Assembly (NCBI GenBank): GCA_025839675.1
Contig: CP104013.1
Span: 870,001-902,000, forward strand
Reading direction: 5' to 3'
Origin: Candidatus Lokiarchaeum ossiferum
Lineage (GTDB): Archaea > Asgardarchaeota > Lokiarchaeia > Sigyniarchaeales > Promethearchaeaceae
Length of the DNA: 32,000 nucleotides
Shown here piece after piece: positions 1 through 27,640 of this stretch. Below the pieces are notes generated by a model that was not told the DNA's origin, did not search any database, and saw only the letters and a list, made by a program, of their open reading frames with translations. Numbering within the stretch: position 1 is the first letter of the stretch; every line of letters starts with the position of its first letter. Both the position numbers and the translations under genes were made by a program.

Positions 1-1656
1 TACGCTGTTGATCAACTCGCAAAGCCAAATATTCTTCTTTTTTATGACCTTTCAAATGGAAAACAAGCAGGAATTTGTGATTATTTATTGATCAATTTTC
101 CTTTAGTAAAACAACAAATGCCAATCTATGTGATTGCCACAACATCTATCGATGAAGGAGCAGGTGCTTTATCTATTTATTGGAGTATTTTAGGGCTAAA
201 CTCGATCATTCAAGGATCCACAGCAAAAGCTTGTATTCTATTAGATTATGAAGCAATTGGAAATTCAATTTTTCTAAAACGAATTAAGAAAATGGATGAT
301 ATTGATTTTGAGAGTTATAACTATGTTGTAGCCCAATTAATTTACTCCATCACATATTATGATAGAGAACCATATTCAAATGCTGTGCCATTTTGTCAAA
401 TGATTGATAAACTCGTGATTTTCAATGACATGAAATTCATCATTCCCTTCATGACAATGCCTCGTCGTGAATTGATCGAAGATGAAACGTTTTCGGGCTA
501 TTTAAACGAGTTGGTAAATGATTGCAACCTATTTTCAATGAATTATAAACGCCCCATAGATGAAAATGGCGTTGAACAAGATTATCCTAAAATTAGTCTC
601 GCTAATGCATTTATTGCCTTTGGGGAAAAACAAGATACACACTATCTAAACTTAATCCGGAATAATTTACCTCCGATCATGGAATATTTGCCTGGCACTA
701 AAACGTTTTATACATATCCCCGCGGGGACCCTTTCTCCGTTTTTTTAGAGAATAATACAGTTGTTCGTCAATATTTTCAAGACCTTTTGGAGAAATTTGA
801 TATTCTTATCTCCCATCATTCTTATCTACATGTTCTTGAGGATTTAGGAATCACCGTAGATTCATTTTCGGATGCCTTAGACAAATTGGTCTCAATAGTG
901 GATGCATACCAAGAAAGTGAGGATCTGCTCTATGATGATGAAGAATTCGATTATGAAGAAGAAATATCCAAGTATGATCAACCTGTTGATGAAGAGGAAG
1001 AACTAAAACGAAAGTATGGAGATACTACAGAAGGCACTTTAGAAGGAGAAATATCTGAGAAAATAAAGGGAATAAGCGACGCAAATGATCCTGAAAATAA
1101 TGAATTTCAAGGAGAAGAAGGAAGCAAACCAGAAATTTCTTCACCAAAAACTGATGCTTCGGAAGATTCAATAAATAAAACACCAAAATTGGATAAAACT
1201 CAAATCATTAGAACAAAAGATGATGAAATCAATGATATTGATAAATTATCACAAAATATTGACGCCAAATCAATTTCAAACTTAAATGAACAAGCAATAA
1301 AACAAAATCCACGAAGATCCCGTCCAACTCGCACTCTGAAATTACAAAAAGCCGATCCAATTTTAGTCTCAAGGGAAGGAGGTCGAATTGTGAAAGAAGA
1401 AAAACCAGATAAAGCGGAAGGAAGCGCTTTAGGTTGGTTAGAAATGCGTGCCAATAAGGAAAAAGAAAAAGTTCAGCAAGAGAAGGCTGAAATCACCAGA
1501 GAACGAGAACGCATTGAACTTGAAAAACGCGAATTTGAAGAAGCACAAGAACTCATTCGGTTAGAAGAAGAGAAGAAAACCCAAGAAGAAACGGAAAAAA
1601 CATTAAAGAAAAAAGAAGAACTGAAAGAATTAGCTAAAATGTTTGAAAATCTATAG
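1..1656 (+). CDS. Highly divergent tubulin-superfamily protein, 5'-partial, with degenerate GTP-signature loop and ~245-aa acidic/charged C-terminal extension ending in a K/E-rich coiled coil
   Basis: Frame 1 is open from nt 1; the 'M' at 88 in the ORF track is a TTG inside a longer frame (YAVDQLAKPNILLFYDLSNGKQAGICDYLLINFP...). By-eye alignment to the two tubulins in this window is collinear. ILLFYDLSNGKQAG aligns with GFIMTHAVGGGSGGG (T4). ACILLDYEAIGNSIF aligns with TVVIDNHALFQIV. KLVIFNDMKFIIPFMTMP aligns with NLVPYPRSHFLMASFAPM. ISLANAFIAFGEK aligns with FLACSLLFRGEN. YLPGTKTF aligns with FIPTGIKY. ENNTVVRQYFQDLLEKFDILISHHSYLHVL aligns with GNNSEIVSVFERIGANFDRLWSRKAFAHWF. GITVDSFSDALDKLVSIVDAYQ aligns with GMSKDDFAGARDNVQKLSDEYK. 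The tail starts at ~916 (ESEDLLYDDEEFDYEEE). Confidence 0.55.
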   Translation, partial: YAVDQLAKPNILLFYDLSNGKQAGICDYLLINFPLVKQQMPIYVIATTSIDEGAGALSIYWSILGLNSIIQGSTAKACILLDYEAIGNSIFLKRIKKMDDIDFESYNYVVAQLIYSITYYDREPYSNAVPFCQMIDKLVIFNDMKFIIPFMTMPRRELIEDETFSGYLNELVNDCNLFSMNYKRPIDENGVEQDYPKISLANAFIAFGEKQDTHYLNLIRNNLPPIMEYLPGTKTFYTYPRGDPFSVFLENNTVVRQYFQDLLEKFDILISHHSYLHVLEDLGITVDSFSDALDKLVSIVDAYQESEDLLYDDEEFDYEEEISKYDQPVDEEEELKRKYGDTTEGTLEGEISEKIKGISDANDPENNEFQGEEGSKPEISSPKTDASEDSINKTPKLDKTQIIRTKDDEINDIDKLSQNIDAKSISNLNEQAIKQNPRRSRPTRTLKLQKADPILVSREGGRIVKEEKPDKAEGSALGWLEMRANKEKEKVQQEKAEITRERERIELEKREFEEAQELIRLEEEKKTQEETEKTLKKKEELKELAKMFENL

Positions 1657-2320: not shown

Positions 2321-5300
2321 TTAAGAATTCGCTTCGTCTTGAATCAAAGAAGGTAAATTTTCTTTCGCTTTTATCGTTTTATAGAGAAGTAAAACAAAAA
2401 CAATCCCTATGACTAAGAAAAGCAAAGAAATATATTCAAAATCGCGTGAAAAGGATCGAATAATGATAAAAAAGACATAGGAAATGCCGATTAGTGCGAT
2501 TAAACCGTATTGGAATTTAATATGGTAATCAATCTCTAAATTAGCGATAACCCAGCCTGCAAACAGAGCAAGATTGAAAATTATGCCAAATTTGACTTCC
2601 GATAAGAATCCAGTCATCATCAAACTAATGATCACAACCATTAGAGAATAATAAAATCGATAGAGAAGATATTTTTCATTAGTTTTAGGACGATTAGAAT
2701 ATAAAAGTGAAACTATACAAGTACAGGCAATAACTGCAGTATAAATAAAGAGAAAATTGAATTCAAAATTATCGTCCATTATCCCCACTAACATTCCGAG
2801 ACCAGAAAGACACGTAATTCCAAGTTGTTGCCACATTTTAGGGTGATATGAGAATAAAAATGTTAACAATATTTGCAATAGAATTATTTGTATCCAGAAA
2901 TATTCACCAGAGATGAAAGTTTGTTGGATGAAACTACCGTAATAATATATTACTGCGAAGGAAATGACAGAAAATCCAAAATTAAAAATTAAATTCACGA
3001 GTAACAATTTTTGATCCTGGTTCGACGTTTTTGATTTTTTTTCTTTATGATTTTGCCGATCAAGAACCGAAAGACTAAGCTCAATAATTAACAAAAGAAC
3101 AAAAACCAAAGGAATAAAGAGTCCAAACTGGGTGAAATCACTCTCAAATATAAAAATAACACAAATAGAATTCATGAGATTTAAAATCAACATGTAAGAA
3201 GAAGTTGAAATTGGATTCTCGGAGATTATATTTTTCATCCAGAAAACAAGAGTAGCGCCAAGAATAATGACAATTTTTGTCCAGGTTGCTAATAGATTAT
3301 TGTAAGAATAATTAATCACTAATATTACAATGATGTTAATCGAATGGGCAAGAAAAGTGTTAATTTTTACATTGATTTGAGTATAAAAAATAATAAGCTG
3401 GAAAGCTACCCAAAAAATAGAGATAAATATTATCCAATAACTTGAATACCGAAAGAATTGAATACTCTTTAAAGATAATAAATAAATGGAAGCGAAATAT
3501 GTTAAGATCCCATACTGCAATACAGATTTTTTGGAAAGATTGGTGTCCTGAGTTAAGAAAAACTTGCCGAATAGACCGGTGATTAATAATCCACCCATAA
3601 ATATCGAAAATAGCACGAGAGTTTCTTGCATTATTGTCAAAATGAAAAGGACCCCTATGGAGGTTAAGAAAATATGAAGAAGGTTTATTTTAGTTTTTGC
3701 ATACTCTACGAATTGGTCTTTTTTGGAATCTTGTAATATTTTCATGCCTACGATAAACGGATAAATAAAAAAGCATAAAATTAGAATAAATTCAACAATT
3801 TGTGTGGATCCCTCAAGATCTCCCATATATAGTTGAAGGATAAGAAAGTTAGTTAAGGATGTGATGAGAAGTTGAAGTGAAATAGCACTTTTTTCTCCAG
3901 AACCATCGATCGTTCTTGAATAATAGAGGGAAAATCCCAAGATTATCATAGTAATAATGAAGAATGCTGGTTTATCGGACGTATTTCTTTCGAAAAGACA
4001 TATAATGAAACCAATCCTCGCCATCAATAAGTAAAATAAACGGACAAAAACTCGCACTTTGGAATATTCAAATTCCAAAAATTGAGTCATACTTAATGCC
4101 ACGTAAAAGCTGAGAATGAACCCCAAAATAACAGCGAAATTATCCCAGATTACTCTAGAGAAAAGTGAAAAATTCAATAAGGTTATAAGGTTGATGAAAA
4201 TTTGAACGGCGTGATTAATAAAAACAAGGAGCAGATAGGGAGTTTTTAGATCATGGCTTAAATCTTGCTTAATAATCCCAATTTGCTCTTTAATCTGAAT
4301 ATAAAACTGAGCTTGAAGAATGATGAATAAAACAACTATTTCTATACTCGAAGAATCTCGGTGATGAATATTGATTACAAGGAAATAATAAGCCGCCATT
4401 GGTAAAATTTGATTAATAATGAGAAGGACAAACTTAACTACACTGTTTTTGTAAAATTCATAGTGATCTCCGTATCCCTTTAATAGCAATCTCCCAAATA
4501 TAATATTTACACAGATAATCAAACTTAGATTCAGGGATATAATTTCAGAAAATTCACCAATAAACGAGAGAATTGAGATGCTAATCATGACTGCAACTAA
4601 AGGAGTGAGGGATATTTTTTTAAGAGCTAACCCTGTTGCAACAATGATTAATGCAGCATAGAAGATTGTGTTAAGATTTTGATAATATATTCCTAAAAAC
4701 TGATTATTAATAAAAGATGGAATTAAAACCAAGATAAGAATGCTCAAAAAGACTTCTCCAATGAAAAAATCATTGCGATACTTTATAAGAAGTATGATAA
4801 ATACGAAAATGAGTGATATAATAGATAAGCACCATATTATTACGTTTAATACAGAGTCCCCAGATAAAACTGCTGTTGGGAGAATATATGCAAGCGACAG
4901 CCCAATTACCCCTAATCCGATAAAACTCCACGGAAAGATAAAAAGTTGTGATTTTTGAGATTTTATGTATTTATTTATCAGATAAAATCCAGCGATTAAG
5001 AATCCGGCTGATAAAATATAAATATAGATAAAAATATTTAAAAAGGTCAAAAAACCTTCCTCAAGCCACCTTATTAACATTAGAAAACTAATGTAAATTG
5101 TTACAGACAGTAAAATATAAAAGAAAAATAGAAGAAGATAGGGTTTTTTTTGATCGGAAGGAGTATTATACGTATTCCTTTGCGATTTTTTAGTTTGCTG
5201 GACCGATTTATTGTCATTTATACCTGGAGATCTTACTCGAGTATATTTCGATAATTCCTTGTGTTGAAGTAAATCTTTGTTTAAAAGTGGTACACTGGCA

Positions 5301-5626
5301 AGTTTTTTCTGAATAAAATTTTGCTCTTTTTGAATTTTTTGTTGAGAAACTGCATCAAACTTAGATACTTTTGTTGATTCTGTTAGTTTTTTTTTAGAAT
5401 AAGATAAATCAGAAGGAAGATGAGGGAGAGCACTAACCAAATGATTTTTTTTAACCTCGTTTGTAGGTAGAGTTTTTTTCATCCCCAATCGCATCTGAAT
5501 GGAATCTAAACTTGTAGCAATAGTATCAACTTTCATTTCTAATGAGGAAATTCGTTGAATCATGTTTTTGAGTTCAGAATTGGAATTGGGATCTGAAGAT
5601 TTTTCTTTTTGTATTTTATCTTCCAT
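2321..5626 (-). CDS. Giant polytopic membrane protein (1101 aa) with ~170-aa basic, coiled-coil cytoplasmic N-terminus
   Basis: Single 3.3-kb ORF in AT-rich DNA. The N-terminus MEDKIQKEK...MIQRISSLEMKVDTIATSLDSIQMRLG has heptad-like spacing and is followed by a K/S/Q-rich segment. After that comes near-continuous hydrophobic helices, a few dozen by eye. The architecture resembles DUF2339-type proteins; that is from memory and not verified. Confidence 0.75.
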   Translation of the reverse strand: MEDKIQKEKSSDPNSNSELKNMIQRISSLEMKVDTIATSLDSIQMRLGMKKTLPTNEVKKNHLVSALPHLPSDLSYSKKKLTESTKVSKFDAVSQQKIQKEQNFIQKKLASVPLLNKDLLQHKELSKYTRVRSPGINDNKSVQQTKKSQRNTYNTPSDQKKPYLLLFFFYILLSVTIYISFLMLIRWLEEGFLTFLNIFIYIYILSAGFLIAGFYLINKYIKSQKSQLFIFPWSFIGLGVIGLSLAYILPTAVLSGDSVLNVIIWCLSIISLIFVFIILLIKYRNDFFIGEVFLSILILVLIPSFINNQFLGIYYQNLNTIFYAALIIVATGLALKKISLTPLVAVMISISILSFIGEFSEIISLNLSLIICVNIIFGRLLLKGYGDHYEFYKNSVVKFVLLIINQILPMAAYYFLVINIHHRDSSSIEIVVLFIILQAQFYIQIKEQIGIIKQDLSHDLKTPYLLLVFINHAVQIFINLITLLNFSLFSRVIWDNFAVILGFILSFYVALSMTQFLEFEYSKVRVFVRLFYLLMARIGFIICLFERNTSDKPAFFIITMIILGFSLYYSRTIDGSGEKSAISLQLLITSLTNFLILQLYMGDLEGSTQIVEFILILCFFIYPFIVGMKILQDSKKDQFVEYAKTKINLLHIFLTSIGVLFILTIMQETLVLFSIFMGGLLITGLFGKFFLTQDTNLSKKSVLQYGILTYFASIYLLSLKSIQFFRYSSYWIIFISIFWVAFQLIIFYTQINVKINTFLAHSINIIVILVINYSYNNLLATWTKIVIILGATLVFWMKNIISENPISTSSYMLILNLMNSICVIFIFESDFTQFGLFIPLVFVLLLIIELSLSVLDRQNHKEKKSKTSNQDQKLLLVNLIFNFGFSVISFAVIYYYGSFIQQTFISGEYFWIQIILLQILLTFLFSYHPKMWQQLGITCLSGLGMLVGIMDDNFEFNFLFIYTAVIACTCIVSLLYSNRPKTNEKYLLYRFYYSLMVVIISLMMTGFLSEVKFGIIFNLALFAGWVIANLEIDYHIKFQYGLIALIGISYVFFIIIRSFSRDFEYISLLFLVIGIVFVLLLYKTIKAKENLPSLIQDEANS

Positions 5627-6296
5627 TATTGCTTGATAGATTTTTGAATTTTAAACTTTTTTGGTCAAATTCTTTGTATTTTCCATTAAACCTATCTCCT
5701 TTATCATTATAATTTTTTATACTTGAATATGTATTCATCTAAGTTGAAATAAAAATGAATTATCTTAAACACATTAACTTTAAAAGAGAAAAAAATACAC
5801 ATTTTTAATATTTATAGTCAAGGGATTAATAATTTAAATCAGAAAGACCAGTATATGCTCTCGATCAATAGTCTTATTCCCAATACTCATCCTGGCAGTT
5901 ACAAGACAGTGTGTTTTAGGAATTTCAACAAATTTTAGAATATTGTTCTCTAAACATCCCCATTACCTCGATCAAGGCTTTGTTTGTCCGAAAGTTTAAA
6001 ATTTGGAAATCTCAATTAAAAAAATAACAAAAATACTCAATATATTTGACATTATAGGCTTCCAATGGTAATTGGATTACTATTGTATTATTGATTCTCT
6101 ATTTTCCCTACATATTCTAATAATTTACTCTGGAATATATAGGATAAAATAAGAACTTCACTAAAGAGCCACTTTAAGATAATTTTTTGCTTTAATCTTC
6201 TTTCCTTCGTGCGTCATCTTTAAAAAAAAAAATTTCCATTGTTCGAAAAATAGGAAAATATATTTGTGAATAAGTATTCAGATAATATGATATAAT

Positions 6297-6986
6297 TTGA
6301 ATGCATTACAGTTTGAAAAAATGAAAAAAAGCTATTTTTATGATGAATTCATGCAGAAAGCTTTAGAATATGACAATCTCAAAATGGAAGATTATATGCA
6401 TTTCATGCCCAAGGTTCTCCCTTTGATTTTAGCTCATACAGAAAGAGATCCTGTAGAACTTTTCCAAACCCTAATGGAAGAGTTACGAGAATTATGGGAT
6501 GCTTCCGAAGAAATTCCTTTTCATGGTCCTTGGCATCATGGAATAATTCCCGCAGTATTGCTGCAAACTTTGCAAAATAATGGAGATAATATTTTAAAAG
6601 AAGATATAGTAGAAGCTTATGGGCGAGGTTTGAAAATAACAGCTGGAAGTTGTGGGTTTTGTGGTATATGTGGAGCGGGATCTGGGGTTGGAATAGCCTT
6701 GAGTATCGCATTGAAAGCAAATCCATTTCAGAATCATCCCCGAACATCAGTATTCGGTGCAAGTGCTCAAACAATCAAGAAAATTGGGCAGTTAGGTGGC
6801 CCTCGCTGTTGTCGATTAAGTTCCTATGTTGCTCTTGAAAAAGGAACGGAATTCCTCTCAAAAGCGGGATTTACGATAGAACCGCGCAAACTTACAGGAT
6901 ATTGCACAATCTTTGAGAGAAATGCAGAATGTCATACTATTCGTTGTCCATATTATTCTAAAAATAAATCTAGGATAGAAGAATGA
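6297..6986 (+). CDS. Cys-rich putative metal/Fe-S-binding protein (DUF5714-like)
   Basis: Motifs HGPWHHGIIPAVLL, GSCGFCGICGAGSGVG, GGPRCCRLSSY and C-x-ECHTIRCPYY. The ORF-track start is TTG at 6297; the first ATG is at 6321. The family name is recalled from a motif pattern and was not searched. Confidence 0.6.
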   Translation: MNALQFEKMKKSYFYDEFMQKALEYDNLKMEDYMHFMPKVLPLILAHTERDPVELFQTLMEELRELWDASEEIPFHGPWHHGIIPAVLLQTLQNNGDNILKEDIVEAYGRGLKITAGSCGFCGICGAGSGVGIALSIALKANPFQNHPRTSVFGASAQTIKKIGQLGGPRCCRLSSYVALEKGTEFLSKAGFTIEPRKLTGYCTIFERNAECHTIRCPYYSKNKSRIEE

Positions 6987-7100
6987 ACTTCACTTTCCCA
7001 ATCTATCATTTTTTCAGTATTTCATCTTCAATCTGAATACTTCAATCCCAAAATTTAGTCGTAATTAAGAATTTTTTTGCTTAAAGATGGATTAAGAAAG

Positions 7101-7109
7101 AAAAAAAAA
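7101..7109 (-). terminator. Oligo-T (T9 on minus strand) after the tubulin pair, candidate terminator
   Basis: A9 on the plus strand at 7101-7109, which is T9 on the minus strand. It begins 10 nt downstream of the TAA stop (7120-7122) of the alpha-like tubulin. Confidence 0.4.
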
Positions 7110-7119
7110 TTGATACGAA

Positions 7120-8394
7120 TTATTCTTCGTCTCGTTTATATTCATCGCTGAGTTTCTGAACGTTGTCTCGAGCCCCTGCGAAATCGTCTTTGGACATACC
7201 TTCAATTTCATACCAATTCAAGAATGCACCCTTGTCGAACATAAGGTTAAATTGGGCTAAGATCCGATTGAAAATTTCAGCCACACCAGTGTGATTAATT
7301 AAAGCAGACCCACTGCGTTCCAAACCTTCAGGAGCGGTGCCAGTCATACCATACTTAATACCGGTAGGAATGAATGAACTAAATTTAATGCGTCCTTTGA
7401 TGTCTAAGAGAGCATTGGTAATATCTTGAGCAGTGTTTTCACCCCGGAAGAGGAGAGAACAGGCCAAGAATGTGCCTTTGGTGACATCGACTGCAGCCAT
7501 CATATAATTTTCTTCGAAGAGAGCATTAGCGAGGTTACTGGTGGTCAATTTCGCATATTGGCGATCTTCCGCAGTTGCCATCGGAGCAAAGGAAGCCATG
7601 AGAAAATGACTGCGTGGATAAGGAACCAAGTTGACCAAGAATTCCTTCATATCGGTGTTGAGTGAACCTTTGAAGCGAAGGGAGGCAGTAATATCAGATA
7701 AAGCCTGAGAGATCACATGGTTCAAATCATCGTAAATAGGATCATCAATACCCATATTCTTCGTGACAATTTGGAACAAAGCATGATTGTCAATAACGAC
7801 GGTTTCATCAGTATATTGAATCATTTTATCCAAAGACAAGATGGCGTTGTATGGTTCTACGACCGCATCGCTTAATAAGGGGCTTGGTAGGATGGAATAA
7901 CTCCACAAAATTTTCTTGGGATATTCTTCTTTAATCTTTTCCATGATTAAACATCCCAAACCTCCACCAGATCCACCACCAACAGCATGGGTCATGATAA
8001 ATCCTTGAAGAGATTCACATTTTGCAACTTCTTTCTTCAGTTGTTCCATGATATTGTCAATCATATCGCGACCTTCACCCAAATAACCTTTTGCAAAACT
8101 GTTTGCACCCCCATAGAGTCCATGGATCAGGTTTTTAGGATCGAAGAAACTTGGTAATTGTTCATTGCCAACTTGTCGAACGACCTTTGGTTCTAAATCA
8201 ATCAAAAGAGCTCGTGGAACATATTTTCCACCACTTGCTTTCATAAAGAAACAATCAGGATCACCTTTAATATCCCCACCAATAGGGGCACCATTATGAT
8301 CTAAATTGTGCTCAGCACAGATTTGTTTCCAATACATTGCACCAACTTGAATACCAGCTTGTCCAACGTGTAACATAATAACTTCTCGGCCCAT
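7120..8394 (-). CDS. Tubulin, alpha-like (catalytic Glu in T7 loop); Asgard AtubA/B-type family candidate
   Basis: 424 aa. MGREVIMLHVGQAGIQVG (compare alpha-tubulin MRECISIHVGQAGVQIG). T4 signature GGGSGGG at 7960-7980. VVEPYNAILS. T7/H8 LNTDMKEFLVNLVPYPRSHF has Glu251 (codon 7642-7644) where alpha-tubulin has E254. FIPTGIKYG; NHTGVAEIFNRILAQFNLMFDKGAFLNWY. Short acidic end ...EYKRDEE. Confidence 0.95.
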   Translation of the reverse strand: MGREVIMLHVGQAGIQVGAMYWKQICAEHNLDHNGAPIGGDIKGDPDCFFMKASGGKYVPRALLIDLEPKVVRQVGNEQLPSFFDPKNLIHGLYGGANSFAKGYLGEGRDMIDNIMEQLKKEVAKCESLQGFIMTHAVGGGSGGGLGCLIMEKIKEEYPKKILWSYSILPSPLLSDAVVEPYNAILSLDKMIQYTDETVVIDNHALFQIVTKNMGIDDPIYDDLNHVISQALSDITASLRFKGSLNTDMKEFLVNLVPYPRSHFLMASFAPMATAEDRQYAKLTTSNLANALFEENYMMAAVDVTKGTFLACSLLFRGENTAQDITNALLDIKGRIKFSSFIPTGIKYGMTGTAPEGLERSGSALINHTGVAEIFNRILAQFNLMFDKGAFLNWYEIEGMSKDDFAGARDNVQKLSDEYKRDEE

Positions 8395-8395
8395 T

Positions 8396-9667
8396 TTATG
8401 CGTCCTCCGTTAATTTTCTGTAATCATCGATCACTTTTTGGACCAATGCACGAGCATCATCGAGATCTTTTTCTTCGAAACCAGAATCAGTAAACCAGTG
8501 AGCGAATGCTTTTCGAGACCAAAGTCGATCAAAATTAGCGCCAATTCGCTCAAAGACTGAGACAATTTCAGAGTTGTTTCCTAACATAATGACACCTAAA
8601 GCACTATCTTTTGGAGAAGTTTCACTCTTTGAAATCTTGAATCCTGTTGGAATCCAGTTTACAAAGGAATTCTGTTCTTTGACAGTAGCCATAGCTTCAT
8701 TTACATCACTAGTTTTGACAGCACCACGGAATAGTACGGAAGCTGCAAGATATCTCCCAGTGGTAGGTTTGCATGCCGCGCAAATATATTCATCACCAAA
8801 TACTTGTGCCGATAATTCTTTGGCGGTCATTTTTTCATAACTTTCTTTACCTGCCAACACGAGTGGAGCAGTAGAAGCCATTAAGAAATGTAAGTTAGAG
8901 AATGGGACTAAGTTGGTGACTAATTTGCCAAGATCAAGGTTCAAAGTTCCGCTAAATCGTAAGGATGCGGTCACATTGGTCAATACTTGAGCAATGATTA
9001 AGTTTAAGTCTTCTAAACTTGGATTTTCCACTTCTAATTTCTTTTCTGCAATGCTAAATAAGGCTTCATTATCTAAAACAATGGAACAGCTAGCATATTT
9101 GATTAAATTAGATAATGTCATGATGGCATTATATGGTTCAACCACAGTTTCAGAAATTTTAGGACTTGGGAAGATACTGAAGGTAAAGATTGGGACCTTT
9201 GGATATCTTTCACGAATGGTTTTCAAAATTTTTGAACCAAATCCGGATCCGGTTCCACCACCACAGCTGTGGGTTAATATGAAGCCCCCGATCGATTCGG
9301 TTTCAGATACACGTTGTTCAACAACTTGCATAACTTTTTCTAATGTCTCAGCTCCGTGTTCATTGAAGCCAATTGCAAAGTTATTTCCGGCACCATCAGC
9401 ACCTGAGACAATTGATTTAGGATCAAAGAGAGTCCCAAATTTTTCACGAATATTTTCCACTACTGCTGGTTCTAAATCCACAACGACGGCTCGTGGAATA
9501 TATTTATCCCCAATAGTATTAAAGAAAATATCGGTATCGCCAACTACATCGATGGCTTTACCATTTACAGGATCAATGCCGTGTTCTGCGCAAATTTTTT
9601 GCCAAAACGCACCAGCAATTTGGTTTCCGGCTTGACCGACCTGTATACAAACGATTTCTCCTGCCAT
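8396..9667 (-). CDS. Tubulin, beta-like (Lys at T7 catalytic position); Asgard AtubA/B-type family candidate
   Basis: MAGEIVCIQVGQAGNQIAG (compare beta-tubulin MREIVHIQAGQCGNQIG). T4 signature GGGTGSG at 9242-9262. VVEPYNAIMT. T7/H8 LNLDLGKLVTNLVPFSNLHF has Lys (codon 8924-8926) where beta-tubulin has K254. WIPTGFK; GNNSEIVSVFERIGANFDRLWSRKAFAHWF. The ORF track starts at GTG 9682 (MGMINM...). ATG 9667 aligns exactly with the partner's MGREVI start, so I prefer it. Confidence 0.95.
   Translation of the reverse strand: MAGEIVCIQVGQAGNQIAGAFWQKICAEHGIDPVNGKAIDVVGDTDIFFNTIGDKYIPRAVVVDLEPAVVENIREKFGTLFDPKSIVSGADGAGNNFAIGFNEHGAETLEKVMQVVEQRVSETESIGGFILTHSCGGGTGSGFGSKILKTIRERYPKVPIFTFSIFPSPKISETVVEPYNAIMTLSNLIKYASCSIVLDNEALFSIAEKKLEVENPSLEDLNLIIAQVLTNVTASLRFSGTLNLDLGKLVTNLVPFSNLHFLMASTAPLVLAGKESYEKMTAKELSAQVFGDEYICAACKPTTGRYLAASVLFRGAVKTSDVNEAMATVKEQNSFVNWIPTGFKISKSETSPKDSALGVIMLGNNSEIVSVFERIGANFDRLWSRKAFAHWFTDSGFEEKDLDDARALVQKVIDDYRKLTEDA
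8404..8408 (-). promoter_or_regulatory. Shine-Dalgarno GGAGG for the alpha-like tubulin, embedded in the end of the beta-like gene
   Basis: The minus strand reads ACGGAGGACGCATAAAATG. GGAGG lies 9 nt upstream of the ATG (8394-8392). The upstream TAA (8398-8396) is 1 nt from that ATG. Confidence 0.7.
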
Positions 9668-9979
9668 GTTTATCATACCCACTTGAAATTTTGCATTTCG
9701 AATATTATCGTTAAATTATTGGTCTTTATGATGTGAGACTCAATAACTATCGCGAAATATTTAATTCAAGAGTTATGTCAATTTTATGCGATCGAGCTAA
9801 TAATAATATATTTTAAAAAATAGGGTCGAAAAATGATTGAAAAAAGCATGGAAAAATTTCTAATGTTGAAATATAAAAGAAACCACTAAATATCTATGAA
9901 AAATTAGTAGGATTGGAAAAATTTATTTTCTTGAAAAAAGGACGAAATCGGTAAAAAATGTTTTAAATTGGAAGATGGA

Positions 9980-10378
9980 TTACCGACGATCCAAATACCG
10001 TGAAATAAAATAATAAATAACTAAAAAGCCAACTTCAGTAATAGAGAAAATAATACTTACAAGGAGCTGTGGAAAGATTCCCATTGCTTCTGTGATCCAA
10101 TAGAAACTGATGATAATAAAAAGCATAGTAAAGATACGAATGATATCTTTTCGTTTAATAAAGGAATATACTATCAGCCCTAATAAAGCAACCATTAGTA
10201 ATGCAGGAATGATATATAAATTACTAAAACGTTGCATACAAAAAATGGAAATTGTAAAGGAGAATATAAAATTAATTCCAGACATCACTAAATAGGTCAG
10301 CCCGATTTTATCAGTTAAAATTTCCCAATCCTCACTAGTATATAACAAATCTTTTTTTTCTTTTTTAACTTCAGTCAT
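9980..10378 (-). CDS. Small 4-TM membrane protein (paralog A)
   Basis: 132 aa with four hydrophobic helices. Shares T-x-LV...IN...IF...Y..(I/L)P......LGL.....F..RKD with the adjacent ORF. Its start overlaps the upstream stop (ATGACTGA, 10371-10378). Confidence 0.65.
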   Translation of the reverse strand: MTEVKKEKKDLLYTSEDWEILTDKIGLTYLVMSGINFIFSFTISIFCMQRFSNLYIIPALLMVALLGLIVYSFIKRKDIIRIFTMLFIIISFYWITEAMGIFPQLLVSIIFSITEVGFLVIYYFISRYLDRR

Positions 10379-10781
10379 TAAAAATTACCGTCCCAGGATG
10401 AGAGTCATAATAATTCATGCAAAGAAGACTAATTTCAAGGAGTGTGATCACTAAAACAGGCCACACCCCCCAAATGTCTAATAATGCTAAAATGGTAAGA
10501 AACGTGCAAGCCACGATGATGTACGAAAAGATATTAATCATCAGAGAAAAATAATCTTTACGAACGAAAATCCAAAATAGAAGACCTAAAATACTAATTA
10601 TTACAATAGGGAGGATCCATAAGTAAACTTTACTTTCTGAAACCAAAAAAATGACCCCTACAATAATAACAAGCAAATTAATAAAGGCATAAACAAGATG
10701 TGTGAATGAATTAGTTCTTACCATTTCTCCGGGAGTTTCTTCATTTCGATCAAAAATGCGTTCACTTCCATCACGAATCAT
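10371..10781 (-). CDS. Small 4-TM membrane protein (paralog B)
   Basis: 136 aa. Tandem paralog of 9980-10378, with an 8-nt overlap that indicates co-transcription. Confidence 0.65.
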   Translation of the reverse strand: MIRDGSERIFDRNEETPGEMVRTNSFTHLVYAFINLLVIIVGVIFLVSESKVYLWILPIVIISILGLLFWIFVRKDYFSLMINIFSYIIVACTFLTILALLDIWGVWPVLVITLLEISLLCMNYYDSHPGTVIFND

Positions 10782-12651: not shown

Positions 12652-14238
12652 ATGGATGAAACGATCGCTTTATTTGTAAGTCTTGGATTAATTGTGATTT
12701 TTATTTCATATACTGTATTGTACTATCTAATAGTTGTTAAAAAGCGTGAAGATATACAAGAAGGCTCAATAACAAGATCCGCAGTTCAAACATTAGAGGA
12801 TTTATTTAAAGAACAAGAAATGGAATCGATCCGTTCGAAATTAGCGAATTTACACCAAATCGCGTCAACTAAAGGAATTCAAGAAGCGGGTCCACTTTCT
12901 ATAAAGAAAGACGAAAAATTGCTTATTGATGAAGGAGAACAATTATGGAAAGAATGGAATGCCGAATTAGGGGAAGCCGAACCAATTTCTGATGAACAGC
13001 GTCAAAAAGATATTGAATTATTAAAAACAACCGTTTCTGCTTTAGAACAATTGGATAAAGAGCATTATAACGAATTAGAGAAAGAAGAAGTAGATATGGG
13101 GAAAGGAATGTTTTATGATTCGATCTCACGAAAGTTGGGGAGAATTTTAAAAAATAAAAATTGGAAAGAATTACCATTTATTCAAGCGGAAAAATTGGAA
13201 AATGAAGCATTAGGAACAGTTAAACACCTCGAACATGATGATTTTAAGGAAACTCTCAAATTGATGAAAGTTGTTGGGATATTTAAAGACATTGTTGAAA
13301 TTGATCCTCATACTACACTCTTAGTTTTTACTAAAACGCCTTTAAAATTTTCCCTTGTTGAAAAAGTAGTGCTAAGTTTTATTGCCCATTCTGAAAATTC
13401 CTCGATCACCGAATTACAAAAGTTAACTGGATGGAAATCTTCATATTTATATCAAGTTATCGAAGATCTGGAACAGAGAAAAATAATTTTAAAACAAGAA
13501 AACCAACTCCAAGCAATTGGATTCATGACAAAGGAGGAACGCACAAATCGGCATCAAAAACTCCATGAAATTCAACTGAAAAAGGAAGAAAAAGAAAATA
13601 AAGTTAATCAGCTCCAACGTGAACAACAAGCGAAAATGAAAGCGGAACAAAAAGAGAAGGAACTTCAACAGAAATTAGAACTGGAACGGAAGCAGAAGGA
13701 ATTAGAAGATGCACGATTGAAAGCAGAAATCGAAGCTCAAAGCGAATCTATGAAAATAGATGTTGATGAACCTGTTATGGAATCTTCAACTCCAGAATTG
13801 CTTGAAGTTCAAAAACGCGAAGAAATTATTCAAAATATTCAACAAATTTTTACAAACACAATGCCCTTAACGGGAGGAATTATCATCCTCCAAGCTTTAC
13901 TATACTATATTAATCAAGGACCATATCCAAACATGCAAAAGATTGAATTGCTTCATTACATCGATATTATGAAAGAACGTCAAATCATTTATGAAGAAAT
14001 TTCCTATTCGGGAGTAGATATCTACATTTTCCAAGATCTTATGATTGATGATGAAATGAAAGTAGCGCTCCGTCATTTTGTCACCCATGGAGAAATGGAT
14101 ATGGAGGATCTTGAAACTGCTACGGACTGGGATACTGAACATGCAAAACGAGTATTAAAACGTTTTTATGATCAAAAAATATTACAACTTAATCAGCGGA
14201 ATCACTTTTATATACCGGGATTGTTCAATACTAATTAG
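12652..14238 (+). CDS. N-terminally membrane-anchored coiled-coil protein with winged-helix-like segments
   Basis: N-terminal TM helix IALFVSLGLIVIFISYTVLYYLIVV. Long E/K/Q-rich coiled coil (KEEKENKVNQLQREQQAKMKAEQKEKELQQKLELERKQKELEDARLKAE). wHTH-like stretches SITELQKLTGWKSSYLYQVIEDLEQRKII and MEDLETATDWDTEHAKRVLKRFYDQKIL. Confidence 0.6.
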   Translation: MDETIALFVSLGLIVIFISYTVLYYLIVVKKREDIQEGSITRSAVQTLEDLFKEQEMESIRSKLANLHQIASTKGIQEAGPLSIKKDEKLLIDEGEQLWKEWNAELGEAEPISDEQRQKDIELLKTTVSALEQLDKEHYNELEKEEVDMGKGMFYDSISRKLGRILKNKNWKELPFIQAEKLENEALGTVKHLEHDDFKETLKLMKVVGIFKDIVEIDPHTTLLVFTKTPLKFSLVEKVVLSFIAHSENSSITELQKLTGWKSSYLYQVIEDLEQRKIILKQENQLQAIGFMTKEERTNRHQKLHEIQLKKEEKENKVNQLQREQQAKMKAEQKEKELQQKLELERKQKELEDARLKAEIEAQSESMKIDVDEPVMESSTPELLEVQKREEIIQNIQQIFTNTMPLTGGIIILQALLYYINQGPYPNMQKIELLHYIDIMKERQIIYEEISYSGVDIYIFQDLMIDDEMKVALRHFVTHGEMDMEDLETATDWDTEHAKRVLKRFYDQKILQLNQRNHFYIPGLFNTN

Positions 14239-16711: not shown

Positions 16712-17284
16712 TTAAAGTTCTAATTTCCAATCTTCAATCTTTTCCAACAGTAAACTGGAGACATTTTCATGGATTATATCCATACCCGGTTTTATTTTAC
16801 GCTCAAAAGTTTTTATATCAAACAATATTTTATGACCACCTGTGATAATGAATAACTCTTCCTTTGAAGCTTTAATGACCGACAATAATTCATGAGCAGT
16901 GCTAATGGACCGGACTTTTCTCTCTAAATCATTCAAAACATCCAACGCAGTTTTATTTTCTTGCGGATCTTGTTTTGAAAAGTTTTCTGAATTCATATCA
17001 GTAAATTTTAACGACAGTTTAGATAGATGATTCTTAATTTTTTGCGCTTCATTGAGAATTTCTGATCGAGAACGGTTCGTTTCATGCAATTGATATTTCA
17101 AATCTCGTAATTCATGAACTTCTTCTTCAATTTTACCAACTTTATCAGATAAGATCGAAAGTTCGTGTTTCATTTCACCTATATTCTGTATAAGATTTAA
17201 GCCAAAATTTTGCAAGATTTGACCAAAACCATTAATTTTTTCTTCAAGAGATTTCTTTGATAATTGATCTTGTGGGTTCGCCAT
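16712..17284 (-). CDS. Hypothetical coiled-coil protein
   Basis: 190-aa ORF transcribed divergently from the GTPase gene. The N-terminal two-thirds are heptad-like. No recognisable motifs. Confidence 0.5.
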   Translation of the reverse strand: MANPQDQLSKKSLEEKINGFGQILQNFGLNLIQNIGEMKHELSILSDKVGKIEEEVHELRDLKYQLHETNRSRSEILNEAQKIKNHLSKLSLKFTDMNSENFSKQDPQENKTALDVLNDLERKVRSISTAHELLSVIKASKEELFIITGGHKILFDIKTFERKIKPGMDIIHENVSSLLLEKIEDWKLEL

Positions 17285-17423
17285 ACTAAATCACATATTT
17301 AGATATTGAAACTATAAAACAAATAATACACTTATAATCCTATTAATTAAGTAATAAGTTAATAAGATTTATATCTAAAGTATTTATTAAGAAAGAAAAA
17401 ATCACTCAAAGCCGATTAAAAGA

Positions 17424-18302
17424 ATGATACAACATGTCAATATTTTAACTATCGATGGAAAATCGCTACTTTTTCGTGAATATGGTGCAACTAAAGTAGA
17501 TCAAGACTTACTTGCAGGATTTTTAAGTGCTTTCAGTGGATTTATGATGGAAATTTCCCAATCTGAAATTAAATCAACAATCACTGGCAAGTCAAAATTC
17601 ATATATAGTAAAGCGAAATCAATAATCGTGGTGATTTGTGCAGATATTGCAGATAAGGATGATGAAATCATCCCAATTTTAGAAACGATTTTAAAAAAAT
17701 TTATCGATCGGTATTGGGATGTGTTTAGAAATGATAATTGGAATGGGGAACGTTCTCTTTTCAATGATTTTTTTGACGAAATTGATAAACTTATTTTAGG
17801 TCCAATTAAAGTATCCATTTTAGGATATGCCGGTGTTGGAAAAACAACGATTACCCGCTTGATAATCGGAAAAGAAGCTAATTTAGAATATATCCCTACA
17901 ATTACGGCAGATATCGCAAATTATGATAAATTGGGAAGTCGAACAATAGTTCTCTGGGATTTTGCAGGTCAAATTCAATTTACTGATTTATGGAATTCCC
18001 TATTAAAAGGAACTCGAATTATTCTTCTAATCACCGATTCAACTTATAAAAATGTGCAAGCTTCAAAAAAAATTATTGAAAAATTTGTAGAAAAACGTTA
18101 TTCTGATGCCGAAATCATTGGAATTGCCAATAAGCAAGATCTTCCTAACCGATTAACAAGCACATTCGTTGAAAAAATCTTAAACATTCCAACATATGGT
18201 ATGATTTCTACGAATGCCGACTATCGATTAATGATCCACGAGATTTTAAAAAAATCTATTGATCGAATTAATCAACAAGACAGTTTTCGCGAGATAAAAT
18301 AG
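17424..18302 (+). CDS. Longin-like N-terminal domain fused to Ras-superfamily small GTPase
   Basis: GTPase motifs are G1 GYAGVGKTT, G2 region IPTITAD, G3 WDFAGQ, G4 NKQD and G5-like ISTNA. The N-terminal ~125 aa (MIQHVNILTIDGKSLLFREYG...LLAGFLSAFSGFMMEI...KFIYSKAKSIIVVICADI...IIPILETILKKFIDRYW) show a beta-beta-alpha-beta-beta-beta-alpha pattern by eye. Confidence 0.85.
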   Translation: MIQHVNILTIDGKSLLFREYGATKVDQDLLAGFLSAFSGFMMEISQSEIKSTITGKSKFIYSKAKSIIVVICADIADKDDEIIPILETILKKFIDRYWDVFRNDNWNGERSLFNDFFDEIDKLILGPIKVSILGYAGVGKTTITRLIIGKEANLEYIPTITADIANYDKLGSRTIVLWDFAGQIQFTDLWNSLLKGTRIILLITDSTYKNVQASKKIIEKFVEKRYSDAEIIGIANKQDLPNRLTSTFVEKILNIPTYGMISTNADYRLMIHEILKKSIDRINQQDSFREIK

Positions 18303-18349
18303 ACGTTTTACCAAAAATTTTTTTTAACAAAAATAAATAGGTCTTTATT

Positions 18350-23587: not shown

Positions 23588-24769
23588 ACAGTTCCCAAAT
23601 TTTTATTAAAAAACTTGAAAATTTTTAGGAACATTTACTATTTAGAATTTTGACTTTAAAAAAGCTTCCTTTTTGGGCTAAGTTAAGATCCTACCTTTTT
23701 ATATTGTCAGTAAGATTTTTCGCCCGATCAAAAAATCATTGAATAAATGTGATTTTTATGGTCATCGGAAGAAAATGAGAATGAAAAATTTGATAAAGGA
23801 ATAAGTTAGAAATATGGCCCAAAATTGCACCAAAATGGACTATTGATCAAATAGTGATCTAATCAATTAATACTATATGATACCATTTAAATTTTTCAAC
23901 TGAAATCGACGTCGAAAATAATCGCTTGCAAAAAAAAAATTTCTACAGTGGATTATGCTAATGTTGAGCACAGAAAAAACCGAATAAATTACCAAATTTG
24001 GAAAATAATTTCACGTGATGAAGAATTTTTGATTATTCACAACTTCATTTTTCAAATTTGAAAAAATCCAATTCAAAGTGATTTTAAACCTGCAAAAAAC
24101 TAGATTGAAACTAATATTAATATGAAATTTATCAAATACTTCTGTTTTCATATAACAGTAGAATTACAGGAAATGTGCACAATAAGGAACAAATCGGTAG
24201 CTTTGTGATGAAGCAAGACAAAACAAATTGGAGGTAATTTCTTTTTATTCAGTAGAAGAAGAAAATGAAAATTATGAACTTTAAACATACAAAAAATAAT
24301 TTTATTGAAATTATTGAATAATTCTATAGACGCTGAGAATTCAGATCATAAGTTATTATTCCAATTTATAGAACGAGTCTTCCAAGGTATTATCACTGTA
24401 CAGCGGAAAAAAACTTTTATAAAATGAGAATAAAAATTAATTATCATCAAAAACTTGTTTTAGTAAATTAAATTCAATTGAAATAAAATTTATTTTTGTC
24501 CCGCTTTTTTTTCATGCTGGAAAATTTCGATAAGCTTTGCTAGGTGATATTTTCAAATTGGAAGGAAAAGTTAATAAAAAATTGAACTTCGTTTGGTTTC
24601 AAAATTATGTAAAAATGAAAAGTTTTTTATTATTATCCTTTTTCATTTTTATTAAGATTTGATTTCTCAAAGCTAGAGTATCAAAATACCTAAAAACAAT
24701 TACTCAAATGAAAAATCAAACGGTATTTGTTTTTTTATAATTTACATAAAACAATTTTTTTATATAGAG

Positions 24770-25417: not shown

Positions 25418-25448
25418 TTTTTTTTAGAATAATATAAAATGAAAATGG

Positions 25449-26501: not shown

Positions 26502-26514
26502 GGAGGAAAAAAAT

Positions 26515-27621: not shown

Positions 27622-27640
27622 ATTGAGATGAATATAAAAA

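What the first reader, a model, noticed from the sequence alone, without database searches (positions are those of the whole stretch)
7120..9682. Translationally coupled beta-like and alpha-like tubulin genes in a prokaryotic operon: candidate heterodimeric, microtubule-type tubulins
Both ORFs are full-length tubulins rather than FtsZ/CetZ.
- Shared hallmarks: N-termini MAGEIVCIQVGQAGNQIA and MGREVIMLHVGQAGIQVG, T4 signatures GGGTGSG (9242-9262) and GGGSGGG (7960-7980), VVEPYNA, the (W/F)IPTG(F/I)K motif, and the C-terminal ...F(D/N)..(W/F)...AF..W(F/Y) helix.
- T7-loop asymmetry: the downstream protein has Glu251 (codon 7642-7644) in LNTDMKEFLVNLVPYPRSHF, where alpha-tubulin has catalytic E254. 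The upstream protein has Lys (codon 8924-8926) in LNLDLGKLVTNLVPFSNLHF, where beta-tubulin has K254. In eukaryotic alpha/beta dimers this asymmetry leaves one GTP site hydrolysable and the other structural.
- Gene arrangement: the genes are 1 nt apart, with a GGAGG 9 nt upstream of the second ATG. That implies stoichiometric co-expression.
- Tails: neither protein has a long acidic E-hook tail.
- Prior work, from memory: Asgard archaea have a single OdinTubulin, and more recently Lokiarchaeial AtubA/AtubB were reported to build few-protofilament microtubules. I cannot check whether these ORFs are those proteins or new paralogs.
Basis: partly seen in the sequence, partly recalled or inferred. 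Interest (0 to 1): 0.92.

Follow-up and report, generated by a model that had tools for sequence, protein, structure and literature searches.

The report
Known Asgard tubulin pair AtubA/AtubB
The two genes are exactly the published microtubule-forming tubulins AtubA and AtubB of the cultured Asgard archaeon Lokiarchaeum ossiferum, so the finding is correct but not new; the left edge of the window holds part of a very divergent tubulin-like gene that I found described in none of the papers I could read.

Summary

ORFs 8396-9667(-) and 7120-8394(-) are 100% identical over full length to PDB 9F6T chains A and B. These are AtubA and AtubB of Candidatus Lokiarchaeum ossiferum, GenBank UYP44425.1 and UYP44424.1. 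Papers citing Wollweber et al., Cell 2025, report heterodimers and five-protofilament microtubules.

Confirmed here:
- the T7 asymmetry (AtubA K248, AtubB E251);
- the 1-nt gap between the genes;
- the GGAGG in front of atubB;
- the short C-terminal tails.

The asymmetry and the junction are conserved in five related loci. Novelty for the assigned finding is nil.

A by-product may be new. The gene at 1-1656(+) is cut by the window edge and belongs to a 658-aa "hypothetical protein". It is a Pfam-invisible, highly divergent member of the tubulin superfamily:
- hhalign gives 98% probability, E 2e-13;
- in PDB and 1.84-billion-protein profile searches, every listed hit that could be classified outside its own family was a tubulin;
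- the modelled fold matches tubulins at TM 0.70-0.77;
- dN/dS is 0.02.

It lies near bona fide tubulin genes in seven of the eight loci examined. I could not confirm that it is unpublished.

The parts
8396..9667 (-). atubA: 423-aa Asgard tubulin A. It is beta-like, with the non-catalytic Lys248 in the T7 loop. Stop codon TAA at 8398-8396.
   Evidence: 100% identical to PDB 9f6t_A. GenBank UYP44425.1. Pfam Tubulin + Tubulin_C.
7120..8394 (-). atubB: 424-aa Asgard tubulin B. It is alpha-like, with the catalytic-type Glu251 in the T7 loop. Stop codon TAA at 7122-7120.
   Evidence: 100% identical to PDB 9f6t_B. GenBank UYP44424.1. Pfam Tubulin + Tubulin_C.
8404..8408 (-). GGAGG Shine-Dalgarno-like motif inside the 3' end of atubA, with 9 nt between it and the atubB ATG. 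The stop-1 nt-start junction is at 8398-8392.
   Evidence: Read directly. The same TAA-N-ATG junction, preceded by GGAGG (GGTGG in L091), occurs in five related loci. Translational coupling is inferred, not shown.
8924..8926 (-). AAA codon for AtubA Lys248, the T7-loop position equivalent to beta-tubulin K254.
   Evidence: Invariant in 6 AtubA orthologues.
7642..7644 (-). GAA codon for AtubB Glu251, the T7-loop position equivalent to alpha-tubulin E254.
   Evidence: Invariant in 6 AtubB orthologues.
7094..7109 (-). Oligo-T tract (T9 then cTTTcTT) starting 10 nt after the atubB stop. Likely archaeal intrinsic terminator that ends a bicistronic unit.
   Evidence: Sequence read. The next gene is convergent (6297-6986, +). 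Function as a terminator is inferred.
9668..9979 (-). 312-nt AT-rich intergenic region upstream of atubA. It is the presumed promoter region; no promoter element was mapped.
   Evidence: Sequence. Inferred only.
1..1656 (+). By-product, not part of the assigned finding. These are the 3' 551 codons of a 658-aa highly divergent tubulin-superfamily protein (P0132, annotated 'hypothetical protein'). The gene is cut by the left edge of the window. The T1 and T4 motifs are degenerate and Gln occupies the T7 Lys/Glu position. An acidic segment follows the H12-like helix, then a disordered linker and a C-terminal coiled coil.

Best explanation
The region is the atubA-atubB operon of Candidatus Lokiarchaeum ossiferum.

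Expression (inferred): the two genes are probably made from one transcript. The atubB ribosome-binding site lies inside the end of atubA and the start codon is one base after the atubA stop. This favours equimolar synthesis.

Assembly (inferred by analogy with alpha/beta-tubulin and with the published description of the Kariarchaeaceae AtubAB orthologues):
- The proteins form a heterodimer in which the AtubA T7 loop, carrying Lys248, sits over the nucleotide bound to AtubB. That site therefore cannot hydrolyse GTP, like the eukaryotic N-site.
- On polymerisation, AtubB Glu251 of the next dimer completes the active site over the nucleotide bound to AtubA. That GTP is then hydrolysed, like the eukaryotic E-site.

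What is shown here: the identity of the proteins, the motifs, the gene junction, and their conservation in relatives.

What is taken from the literature: heterodimer formation, five-protofilament microtubules in vitro, and seven-protofilament tubes with the paralogue AtubB2.

What is inferred: translational coupling, the terminator, and which site hydrolyses GTP.
For: - Full-length 100% identity to PDB 9F6T chains A and B, named AtubA and AtubB of Ca. L. ossiferum.
- Exact sequence match to GenBank UYP44425.1 and UYP44424.1 on a 6.04-Mb chromosome of that organism.
- Pfam Tubulin + Tubulin_C in both.
- K248 and E251 at alpha-tubulin position 254, invariant in six loci whose AtubA is 64-100% identical.
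- TAA-1 nt-ATG junction with an upstream GGAGG, conserved in five related loci (GGTGG in L091).
- Oligo-T tract after atubB and a convergent downstream gene.
- Literature: PMC13394414, PMC13371889, PMC12993045 and bioRxiv 10.1101/2025.07.22.663070 all describe the L. ossiferum AtubA/B pair as heterodimeric tubulins that build mini-microtubules, citing Wollweber et al., Cell 188:2451 (2025).
Against: Nothing contradicts the identification.

Limits:
- The primary paper is not in the held library, so the experimental details come second-hand from papers that cite it.
- No transcript data were available to prove a single mRNA or translational coupling.
- Alpha-like and beta-like are functional labels only. 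Over full length both proteins score best against beta-tubulin chains.
- In the heimdallarchaeial orthologue the N-site density looked like GDP rather than GTP, so the structural-GTP analogy may not be exact.
Confidence: 0.97

Rival explanations
1. The ORFs are CetZ/FtsZ-type archaeal tubulin-superfamily proteins, as the GenBank product name 'Tubulin-like protein CetZ' says. On this reading they are not microtubule-type tubulins.
For: The source annotation of UYP44424.1 and UYP44425.1 reads 'Tubulin-like protein CetZ', and some JGI relatives are named 'cell division GTPase FtsZ'.
Against: - Both proteins match the Pfam Tubulin_C domain at 95-97 bits.
- All 60 PDB matches listed for each protein are Atub, Btub or eukaryotic tubulin chains. 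No CetZ or FtsZ chain appears among them.
- The solved structures are deposited as Asgard tubulins.
- Published phylogenies place them with eukaryotic tubulins.

The product name is an automatic misannotation.
Confidence: 0.01
2. The pair is eukaryotic DNA on a chimeric or contaminated contig.
For: Tubulins are otherwise a eukaryotic hallmark. Stray tubulin fragments do turn up in bacterial assemblies (the two short contigs).
Against: - Identity to eukaryotic tubulins is only about 36-41%.
- The genes are intron-free, 1 nt apart and preceded by a Shine-Dalgarno-like motif.
- The flanks are prokaryote-type genes (ABC transporter operon, small GTPase, myo-inositol-1-phosphate synthase) in DNA of 25-45% G+C.
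- The same locus is present in two complete L. ossiferum chromosomes and in several related assemblies.
Confidence: 0.005
3. The ORFs are new paralogues (for example AtubB2- or AtubC-like) and not the characterised AtubA/AtubB. The reader raised this possibility.
For: Lokiarchaeal genomes do carry extra paralogues. AtubB2 lies elsewhere in the genome, and AtubC lies about 9.6 kb from atubB.
Against: - Identity to AtubA and AtubB is 100% over every residue.
- AtubB2 (9f6v_D) matches the downstream ORF at only 401 bits, against 967 bits for AtubB.
- AtubC is only 26-28% identical to either protein.
Confidence: 0.005

Closest known systems
AtubA/AtubB of Candidatus Lokiarchaeum ossiferum (PDB 9F6T, 9F6U, 9F6V, 9HXC; Wollweber et al., Cell 2025)
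   Same: Everything. The protein sequences are identical and the organism is the same.
   Different: Nothing. These are the same genes.
Heimdallarchaeial (Kariarchaeaceae) AtubAB, also called Heim-alpha/beta-tubulin (PDB 24RT, 9TQJ; PMC13394414, PMC13371889)
   Same: - Tandem atubA-atubB operon in which the second ribosome-binding site overlaps the end of the first gene.
- Lys in the AtubA T7 loop (also K248) and Glu in AtubB.
- Heterodimers that build mini-microtubules.
   Different: - The proteins are distinct orthologues: they score 431-450 bits against the window proteins, versus 942-967 bits for the L. ossiferum chains themselves.
- They build four protofilaments, against five reported for the Loki pair.
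BtubA/BtubB of Prosthecobacter (PDB 2BTO, 2BTQ, 5O09)
   Same: A prokaryotic tandem tubulin pair that forms 4-5-protofilament mini-microtubules. Published trees place BtubA within the AtubA clade and BtubB within the AtubB clade.
   Different: Bacterial host. BtubA matches AtubA at E 1e-115, and BtubB matches AtubB at E 1e-118.
Eukaryotic alpha/beta-tubulin
   Same: - Same fold and the same T1, T4 and T5 motifs.
- The same Glu/Lys asymmetry at position 254.
- Heterodimer logic.
   Different: - About 36-41% identity.
- No acidic C-terminal tails.
- Encoded as an operon.
- Few protofilaments.
- Not clearly orthologous one-to-one with alpha and beta.
OdinTubulin (PDB 7EVE)
   Same: An Asgard archaeal tubulin close to eukaryotic tubulins.
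   Different: It is a single gene in which every subunit keeps the catalytic residue, and it forms homopolymeric tubules of a different architecture.

Membership tests
Tubulin family proper (as opposed to FtsZ/CetZ) | N-terminal Tubulin/FtsZ GTPase domain together with the tubulin-specific C-terminal domain (Pfam PF03953) | tested here: met
   Both domains lie well above their cut-offs in both proteins.
Tubulin family proper (as opposed to FtsZ/CetZ) | Intact nucleotide-binding motifs: T1 GQAG.Q, T4 GGG(T/S)G.G, T5 VVEPYN | tested here: met
AtubA/AtubB (Asgard heterodimeric tubulins) | Sequence identity to the characterised proteins | tested here: met
   423/423 and 424/424 identical residues against PDB 9f6t_A and 9f6t_B.
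AtubA/AtubB (Asgard heterodimeric tubulins) | Genes in tandem on one strand, atubA first | tested here: met
   1-nt spacer in the window. The same arrangement holds in five related loci. PMC13394414 states that the genes are always in tandem.
AtubA/AtubB (Asgard heterodimeric tubulins) | Complementary T7 residues: Lys in AtubA and Glu in AtubB | tested here: met
   K248 and E251, invariant in six loci.
AtubA/AtubB (Asgard heterodimeric tubulins) | Heterodimer formation and GTP-dependent assembly into hollow few-protofilament microtubules | not testable with these tools
   Reported for these exact proteins by Wollweber et al. 2025, as summarised in PMC12993045, PMC13394414 and PMC13371889. Deposited cryo-EM entries are 9F6T and 9HXC.
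CetZ/FtsZ (the GenBank product name) | Closest relatives are CetZ or FtsZ, and the tubulin-type C-terminal domain is absent | tested here: not met
   No CetZ or FtsZ chain is among the 60 PDB matches listed for either protein. Tubulin_C is present.
Eukaryotic alpha- or beta-tubulin clades (one-to-one orthology) | AtubB groups with alpha and AtubA groups with beta; acidic C-terminal tails present | tested here: inconclusive
   The T7 residues match the alpha/beta pattern. However, both proteins score best against beta chains over full length, and both lack acidic tails. Published trees disagree on placement. I built no tree.
Tubulin/FtsZ superfamily (for the by-product gene at 1-1656) | Significant profile and fold similarity to tubulins over the GTPase, intermediate and C-terminal domains | tested here: met
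   - hhalign: 97.9-98.0% probability, E 5.5e-13 and 1.9e-13.
- PDB profile search: 86 chains matched; the 60 listed are all tubulin chains.
- Search of 1.84 billion proteins: the hits are family members, one further Pfam-negative relative (P0140), and three proteins with Pfam tubulin domains.
- Foldseek: TM 0.70-0.77 to tubulin structures. The model's alignment included true tubulins, so this last point is partly circular.
Tubulin/FtsZ superfamily (for the by-product gene at 1-1656) | Canonical GTP-binding and catalytic motifs | tested here: not met
   - T1 reads G(Q/H/T/S)RGLQ.
- T4 reads SNGKQAG.
- DNEA reads DYEA.
- The T7 Lys/Glu position is Gln.
- Pfam finds no domain even at E <= 10.

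The protein is therefore a tubulin-fold protein but probably not a canonical GTPase.

The most novel reading that the evidence does not exclude
The atubAB operon may be one arm of a conserved lokiarchaeal tubulin gene island. Besides AtubC and a zinc-ribbon/AAA_assoc_C protein, the island encodes a fourth tubulin-superfamily paralogue that I found in none of the papers I could read.

This paralogue is 658 aa, and window 1-1656 is its 3' 84%. Pfam does not detect it. Its nucleotide-binding motifs are degenerate, and Gln replaces the catalytic Glu or structural Lys. An acidic segment follows the H12-like helix and aligns with the eukaryotic acidic tails, which AtubA and AtubB lack. It ends in a conserved coiled coil.

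Such a protein could bind a protofilament end or the lattice without hydrolysing GTP. It might then act as a cap, a nucleator or an adaptor for Asgard microtubules.

I rate homology to tubulin as about 0.9 likely. The overall probability is lower for two reasons. I could not read the primary Cell paper to exclude prior description, and the link to microtubules rests only on gene neighbourhood.
Probability: 0.35. Interest if true: 0.65.

Novelty: already known. Interest (0 to 1): 0.15.

Why it matters
The biology is important. These proteins are the published evidence that heterodimeric, microtubule-building tubulins exist in an Asgard archaeon, which bears on a possible pre-eukaryotic origin of microtubules. 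That case has already been made with structures, in vitro assembly and cryo-tomography, so re-finding the genes adds nothing.

Three practical points come out of this check:
- The GenBank product name ("Tubulin-like protein CetZ") is wrong and could mislead automated surveys.
- The Lys/Glu asymmetry and the stop-1 nt-start junction are conserved across lokiarchaeal relatives.
- A Pfam-invisible tubulin-fold paralogue lies near the tubulin genes in most loci examined. If it is unpublished, it is a concrete candidate for a microtubule-associated or regulatory factor in archaea.

Tried and rejected
- **Genome-collection scan** with the AtubA/B alignment. It returned only two short stray contigs and not even the source genome, so it gave no information.
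- **Metagenome scan**. It returned 80 loci, all about 35-39% identical to the query. That is the identity level of the eukaryotic tubulins, and most are single genes on short contigs. None is an Atub relative, so this did not help with synteny.
- **AtubC inside the window.** tblastn found no third canonical tubulin. AtubC lies about 2.4 kb outside the left edge.
- **DASH_Dad3 hit.** The 190-aa ORF at 16712-17284 scored 24.2 bits against a 23.1-bit cut-off. This looked like a kinetochore and microtubule link. None of its three orthologues reproduces the hit, and each matches a different coiled-coil family at noise level. I rejected it as a coiled-coil artefact.
- **AlphaFold2 on the divergent paralogue with a family-only alignment of 5 sequences** gave mean pLDDT 47, which is unusable. 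Only the deeper alignment that included true tubulins gave a usable model, so that model is partly circular.
- **tRNA and Rfam scans** of the window found nothing.
- **The primary Cell paper** could not be retrieved.
- **The sigma-70 promoter/terminator scanner** was not used, because it does not apply to archaeal promoters.
Full report
**1. Observation**

The two ORFs are real. One lies at 8396-9682(-). The mechanical ORF starts at a GTG, but the biological start is ATG 9667, which gives 423 aa. The other lies at 7120-8394(-) and encodes 424 aa.

Both carry Pfam Tubulin (199 and 179 bits) and Tubulin_C (97 and 95 bits).

- GGGTGSG at 9242-9262;
- GGGSGGG at 7960-7980;
- GAA (Glu251) at 7642-7644;
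- AAA (Lys248) at 8924-8926.

Fragment searches align both residues with position 254 of eukaryotic alpha-tubulin chains.

The junction reads ...ACGGAGGACGCA-TAA-A-ATG..., so there is one nucleotide between the stop and the start. GGAGG lies at 8408-8404, with 9 nt between it and the ATG.

The two proteins are 40.5% identical to each other and end in short, only mildly acidic tails.

**2. Identity**

A search of all PDB chain sequences gave full-length, 100% identical matches. The upstream ORF is 9f6t_A, [quoted passage not shown] (942 bits). The downstream ORF is 9f6t_B, "AtubB" (967 bits).

The next-best matches are:
- the heimdallarchaeial orthologues, deposited as Heim-beta-tubulin = AtubA and Heim-alpha-tubulin = AtubB;
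- AtubB2;
- BtubA and BtubB;
- eukaryotic tubulins.

No CetZ or FtsZ chain appears among the 60 matches listed for either protein.

Exact-sequence look-up gives GenBank UYP44425.1 and UYP44424.1 on the 6,035,313-bp chromosome of Ca. L. ossiferum. Both are annotated "Tubulin-like protein CetZ", which is a misannotation. The same genes occur in a second assembly, CP163304.1.

**3. What is published**

[quoted passage not shown] It is not in the held library. Four held papers describe its results:
- PMC13394414: AtubA and AtubB are always encoded in tandem. AtubC lies within 10 kb in Lokiarchaeia, and AtubB2 lies elsewhere. In the Kariarchaeaceae orthologue, AtubA K248 cannot support hydrolysis in the GTP pocket of AtubB below it.
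- PMC13371889: one Loki/Heim branch keeps the catalytic Glu and the other carries Lys, which predicts a stable alpha/beta-like dimer. Its alignment uses the L. ossiferum structures 9HXC and 9F6T.
- bioRxiv 10.1101/2025.07.22.663070: a relative with about 84% identity has the same adjacent pair and the same inactive T7 loop.

**4. Mechanism**

Shown here: both proteins keep intact nucleotide-binding motifs. The T7 residues are complementary (Lys in AtubA, Glu in AtubB). The genes are 1 nt apart, with a Shine-Dalgarno-like GGAGG inside atubA. An oligo-T tract (T9 then cTTTcTT, 7109-7094) begins 10 nt after the atubB stop, and the next gene is convergent.

Conserved in relatives: I retrieved five loci whose AtubA is 64-86% identical. 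All have the TAA-N-ATG junction preceded by GGAGG (GGTGG in L091). All have Lys in AtubA and Glu in AtubB.

Inferred:
- one bicistronic mRNA with coupled translation, giving equimolar subunits;
- a heterodimer in which AtubA Lys248 covers the nucleotide bound to AtubB, making a non-hydrolysing, N-site-like pocket;
- on polymerisation, AtubB Glu251 of the next dimer activating hydrolysis of the GTP bound to AtubA, an E-site-like pocket.

The labels alpha-like and beta-like are functional, not phylogenetic. Over full length both proteins score best against beta chains. Published trees put AtubA and AtubB either as their own sister clades or near alpha-tubulin.

**5. Rivals**

- CetZ/FtsZ, the database name, is refuted.
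- Eukaryotic contamination is refuted by about 36-41% identity to eukaryotic tubulins, by the operon structure, by the prokaryote-type flanks and by the locus being present in two complete chromosomes.
- "New paralogues" is refuted by the 100% identity. AtubB2 scores 401 bits against 967 for AtubB, and AtubC is 26-28% identical.

**6. By-product: a divergent tubulin-fold gene at the left edge of the window**

*How it turned up.* I compared the window ORFs with the genes of the related loci. The ORF listed as 88-1656(+) has no Pfam hit, yet it is 57-71% identical to unannotated 653-737-aa proteins. In the relatives these lie between atubB and a DZR/AAA_assoc_C gene followed by AtubC. The same ORF also hit AtubC and AtubA weakly. 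Frame 1 is open from base 1, so the window cuts the gene. The full L. ossiferum protein is 658 aa (P0132, "hypothetical protein").

*Evidence for homology to tubulins:*
- Profile-profile comparison against an AtubA/B/C profile gives 97.9-98.0% probability, E 5.5e-13 and 1.9e-13, over 234-259 columns that cover tubulin residues about 151-421.
- A family profile searched against all PDB sequences matches 86 chains. The 60 listed are all tubulin chains, the best at 4.5e-6.
- An exhaustive HMMER search of 1.84 billion representative proteins returns nine proteins. Five are family members, one is a further Pfam-negative relative (P0140), and three have Pfam tubulin domains (whole-library E from 3e-6 to 1e-4).
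- A 27-sequence alignment is co-linear with tubulins from S1 to H12, with G17, G20, G127, Y167, D189, T225 and G315 invariant.
- An AlphaFold2 model built from that alignment (pLDDT 76.9, pTM 0.83) matches solved tubulin structures at TM 0.70-0.77 and E about 1e-20, with only 13-18% identity. The alignment contained true tubulins, so this point is supportive and not independent. A family-only alignment was too shallow (pLDDT 47).

*How it differs from working tubulins.* Pfam sees nothing even at E <= 10. The motifs are degenerate:
- T1 is G(Q/H/T/S)RGLQ;
- T4 is SNGKQAG;
- DNEA is DYEA;
- the T7 Lys/Glu position is Gln.

After the H12-like helix comes an acidic segment (YQESEDLLYDDEEFDYEEEI) that aligns with the acidic tails of eukaryotic tubulins. 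About 150 poorly conserved residues follow, and then a conserved helix of about 75 residues that is rich in Glu and Lys.

*It is a working gene.* dN/dS is 0.02 for the globular domain and 0.26 for the linker, comparing L. ossiferum with the organism of locus L093.

*Genomic association.*
- L. ossiferum (L092), L093, L087, L088 and L089: the order is AtubC, DZR/AAA_assoc_C, then the divergent gene.
- L090: the gene follows atubB after an MmeI-like methyltransferase.
- L094, a distant member: it is directly preceded by the DZR gene, and no tubulin gene is visible on this 4-kb contig.
- L095, a still more distant member: it lies about 2.3 kb from a canonical tubulin gene.

*Why it may have been missed.* The published survey of Asgard tubulins used PF00091 and COG seeds, single-iteration PSI-BLAST and long-branch removal. 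That procedure would plausibly miss this family. The two versions of that paper do not mention it. I cannot exclude that the Cell paper does.

**7. Wider locus**

In L. ossiferum the order is as follows (window base 1 corresponds to L092 position 10322):
- a cluster of Flagellin_arch-type (archaellin-like), T2SSE, T2SSF and KaiC-like ATPase genes;
- AtubC (469 aa);
- a MaoC-like dehydratase;
- the DZR protein;
- the divergent tubulin-like gene;
- a 101-aa protein and a 1101-aa membrane protein;
- DUF5714;
- atubB and atubA.

AtubC ends about 2.4 kb left of the window and about 9.6 kb from atubB, in line with the published "within 10 kb". The following genes have no counterparts in the related loci, so they look like lineage-specific insertions around the operon:
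- the 1101-aa membrane protein;
- DUF5714;
- the two small membrane proteins just upstream of atubA;
- the acyl-CoA dehydrogenase.

**8. Verdict**

Novelty is "already known", and interest for the assigned finding is low (0.15). The by-product gene at 1-1656 deserves a literature check and, if it proves unpublished, follow-up.

Noticed in passing
window 1-1656 (+); full gene in L092:10001-11977: The gene is cut by the left edge of the window. It encodes a 658-aa 'hypothetical protein' that is a Pfam-invisible, highly divergent tubulin-superfamily member. Evidence: hhalign 98% probability and E 2e-13; PDB and 1.84-billion-protein profile searches in which every listed hit that could be classified outside its own family was a tubulin; modelled fold TM 0.70-0.77 to tubulins; dN/dS 0.02. 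The GTP-binding motifs are degenerate, and Gln sits at the T7 Lys/Glu position. It has an acidic segment like the eukaryotic tubulin tails and a C-terminal coiled coil. It lies near canonical tubulin genes in seven of the eight loci examined. None of the papers I could read describes it.
   Followed up: yes
just left of the window: L092:1-9852 (CP163304.1): AtubC (469 aa; intact GQAG and GGGAGSG motifs; Lys at the T7 position) lies about 2.4 kb outside the window. It is flanked by a cluster of Flagellin_arch-type (archaellin-like), KaiC-like ATPase, T2SSE and T2SSF genes, and by an AAA_assoc_C/double-zinc-ribbon gene. The order AtubC, DZR, divergent tubulin-like gene is conserved in L087, L088, L089 and L093.
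   Followed up: partly
window 12652-14238 (+): A 528-aa protein with an N-terminal hydrophobic (probable transmembrane) segment, Glu/Lys-rich coiled-coil-like stretches and weak winged-helix hits (MarR, TrmB, EAP30). It has homologues near atubAB in L089 (35% identity). In L090 and L091 its homologue is the immediate divergent neighbour of atubA. Function unknown.
   Followed up: partly
window 16712-20098: A block of three genes recurs near atubAB in L089, L090 and L091: a 190-aa coiled-coil protein (-), an Arf/Roc-type small GTPase with an N-terminal extension of about 125 aa (+), and a PGM/PMM-family protein (+). The DASH_Dad3 Pfam hit of the 190-aa protein (24.2 bits) is not reproduced in its orthologues and is a coiled-coil artefact.
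   Followed up: yes
window 9980-10781 (-): Two small predicted membrane proteins (132 and 136 aa, overlapping by 8 nt) lie directly upstream of atubA on the same strand. They have no Pfam hit and no counterpart in the related loci.
   Followed up: no
window 2321-6986: A 1101-aa polytopic membrane protein with no Pfam hit (-) and a DUF5714 protein (+) lie between the divergent tubulin-like gene and atubB. Neither has a counterpart in the related loci, so this looks like a lineage-specific insertion into the tubulin island.
   Followed up: partly
window 7120-9667; GenBank UYP44424.1 and UYP44425.1: Public annotation calls both proteins 'Tubulin-like protein CetZ', and JGI relatives are named 'cell division GTPase FtsZ'. 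These names are wrong for proteins with solved structures deposited as AtubA and AtubB.
   Followed up: yes
window 20354-21708 (+): Two overlapping ORFs (218 and 272 aa). The second has a weak DDE_Tnp_1 transposase hit. This may be an insertion sequence with a frameshifted transposase.
   Followed up: no
window 31502-31895, inside ORF 31018-31941 (-): A 72-bp tandem repeat with 5.5 copies and 96% matches. It accounts for the G+C jump to 0.45 and the strong GC skew at the right end of the window. The 307-aa ORF has no Pfam hit and would contain 24-residue repeats.
   Followed up: no
window 21788-29877: An ordinary oligopeptide/dipeptide ABC transporter: a family-5 solute-binding protein on the minus strand, then two permeases and two ATPases on the plus strand. 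A 1.2-kb stretch with no ORF of 90 aa or more and 25% G+C lies at about 23.6-24.8 kb.
   Followed up: no
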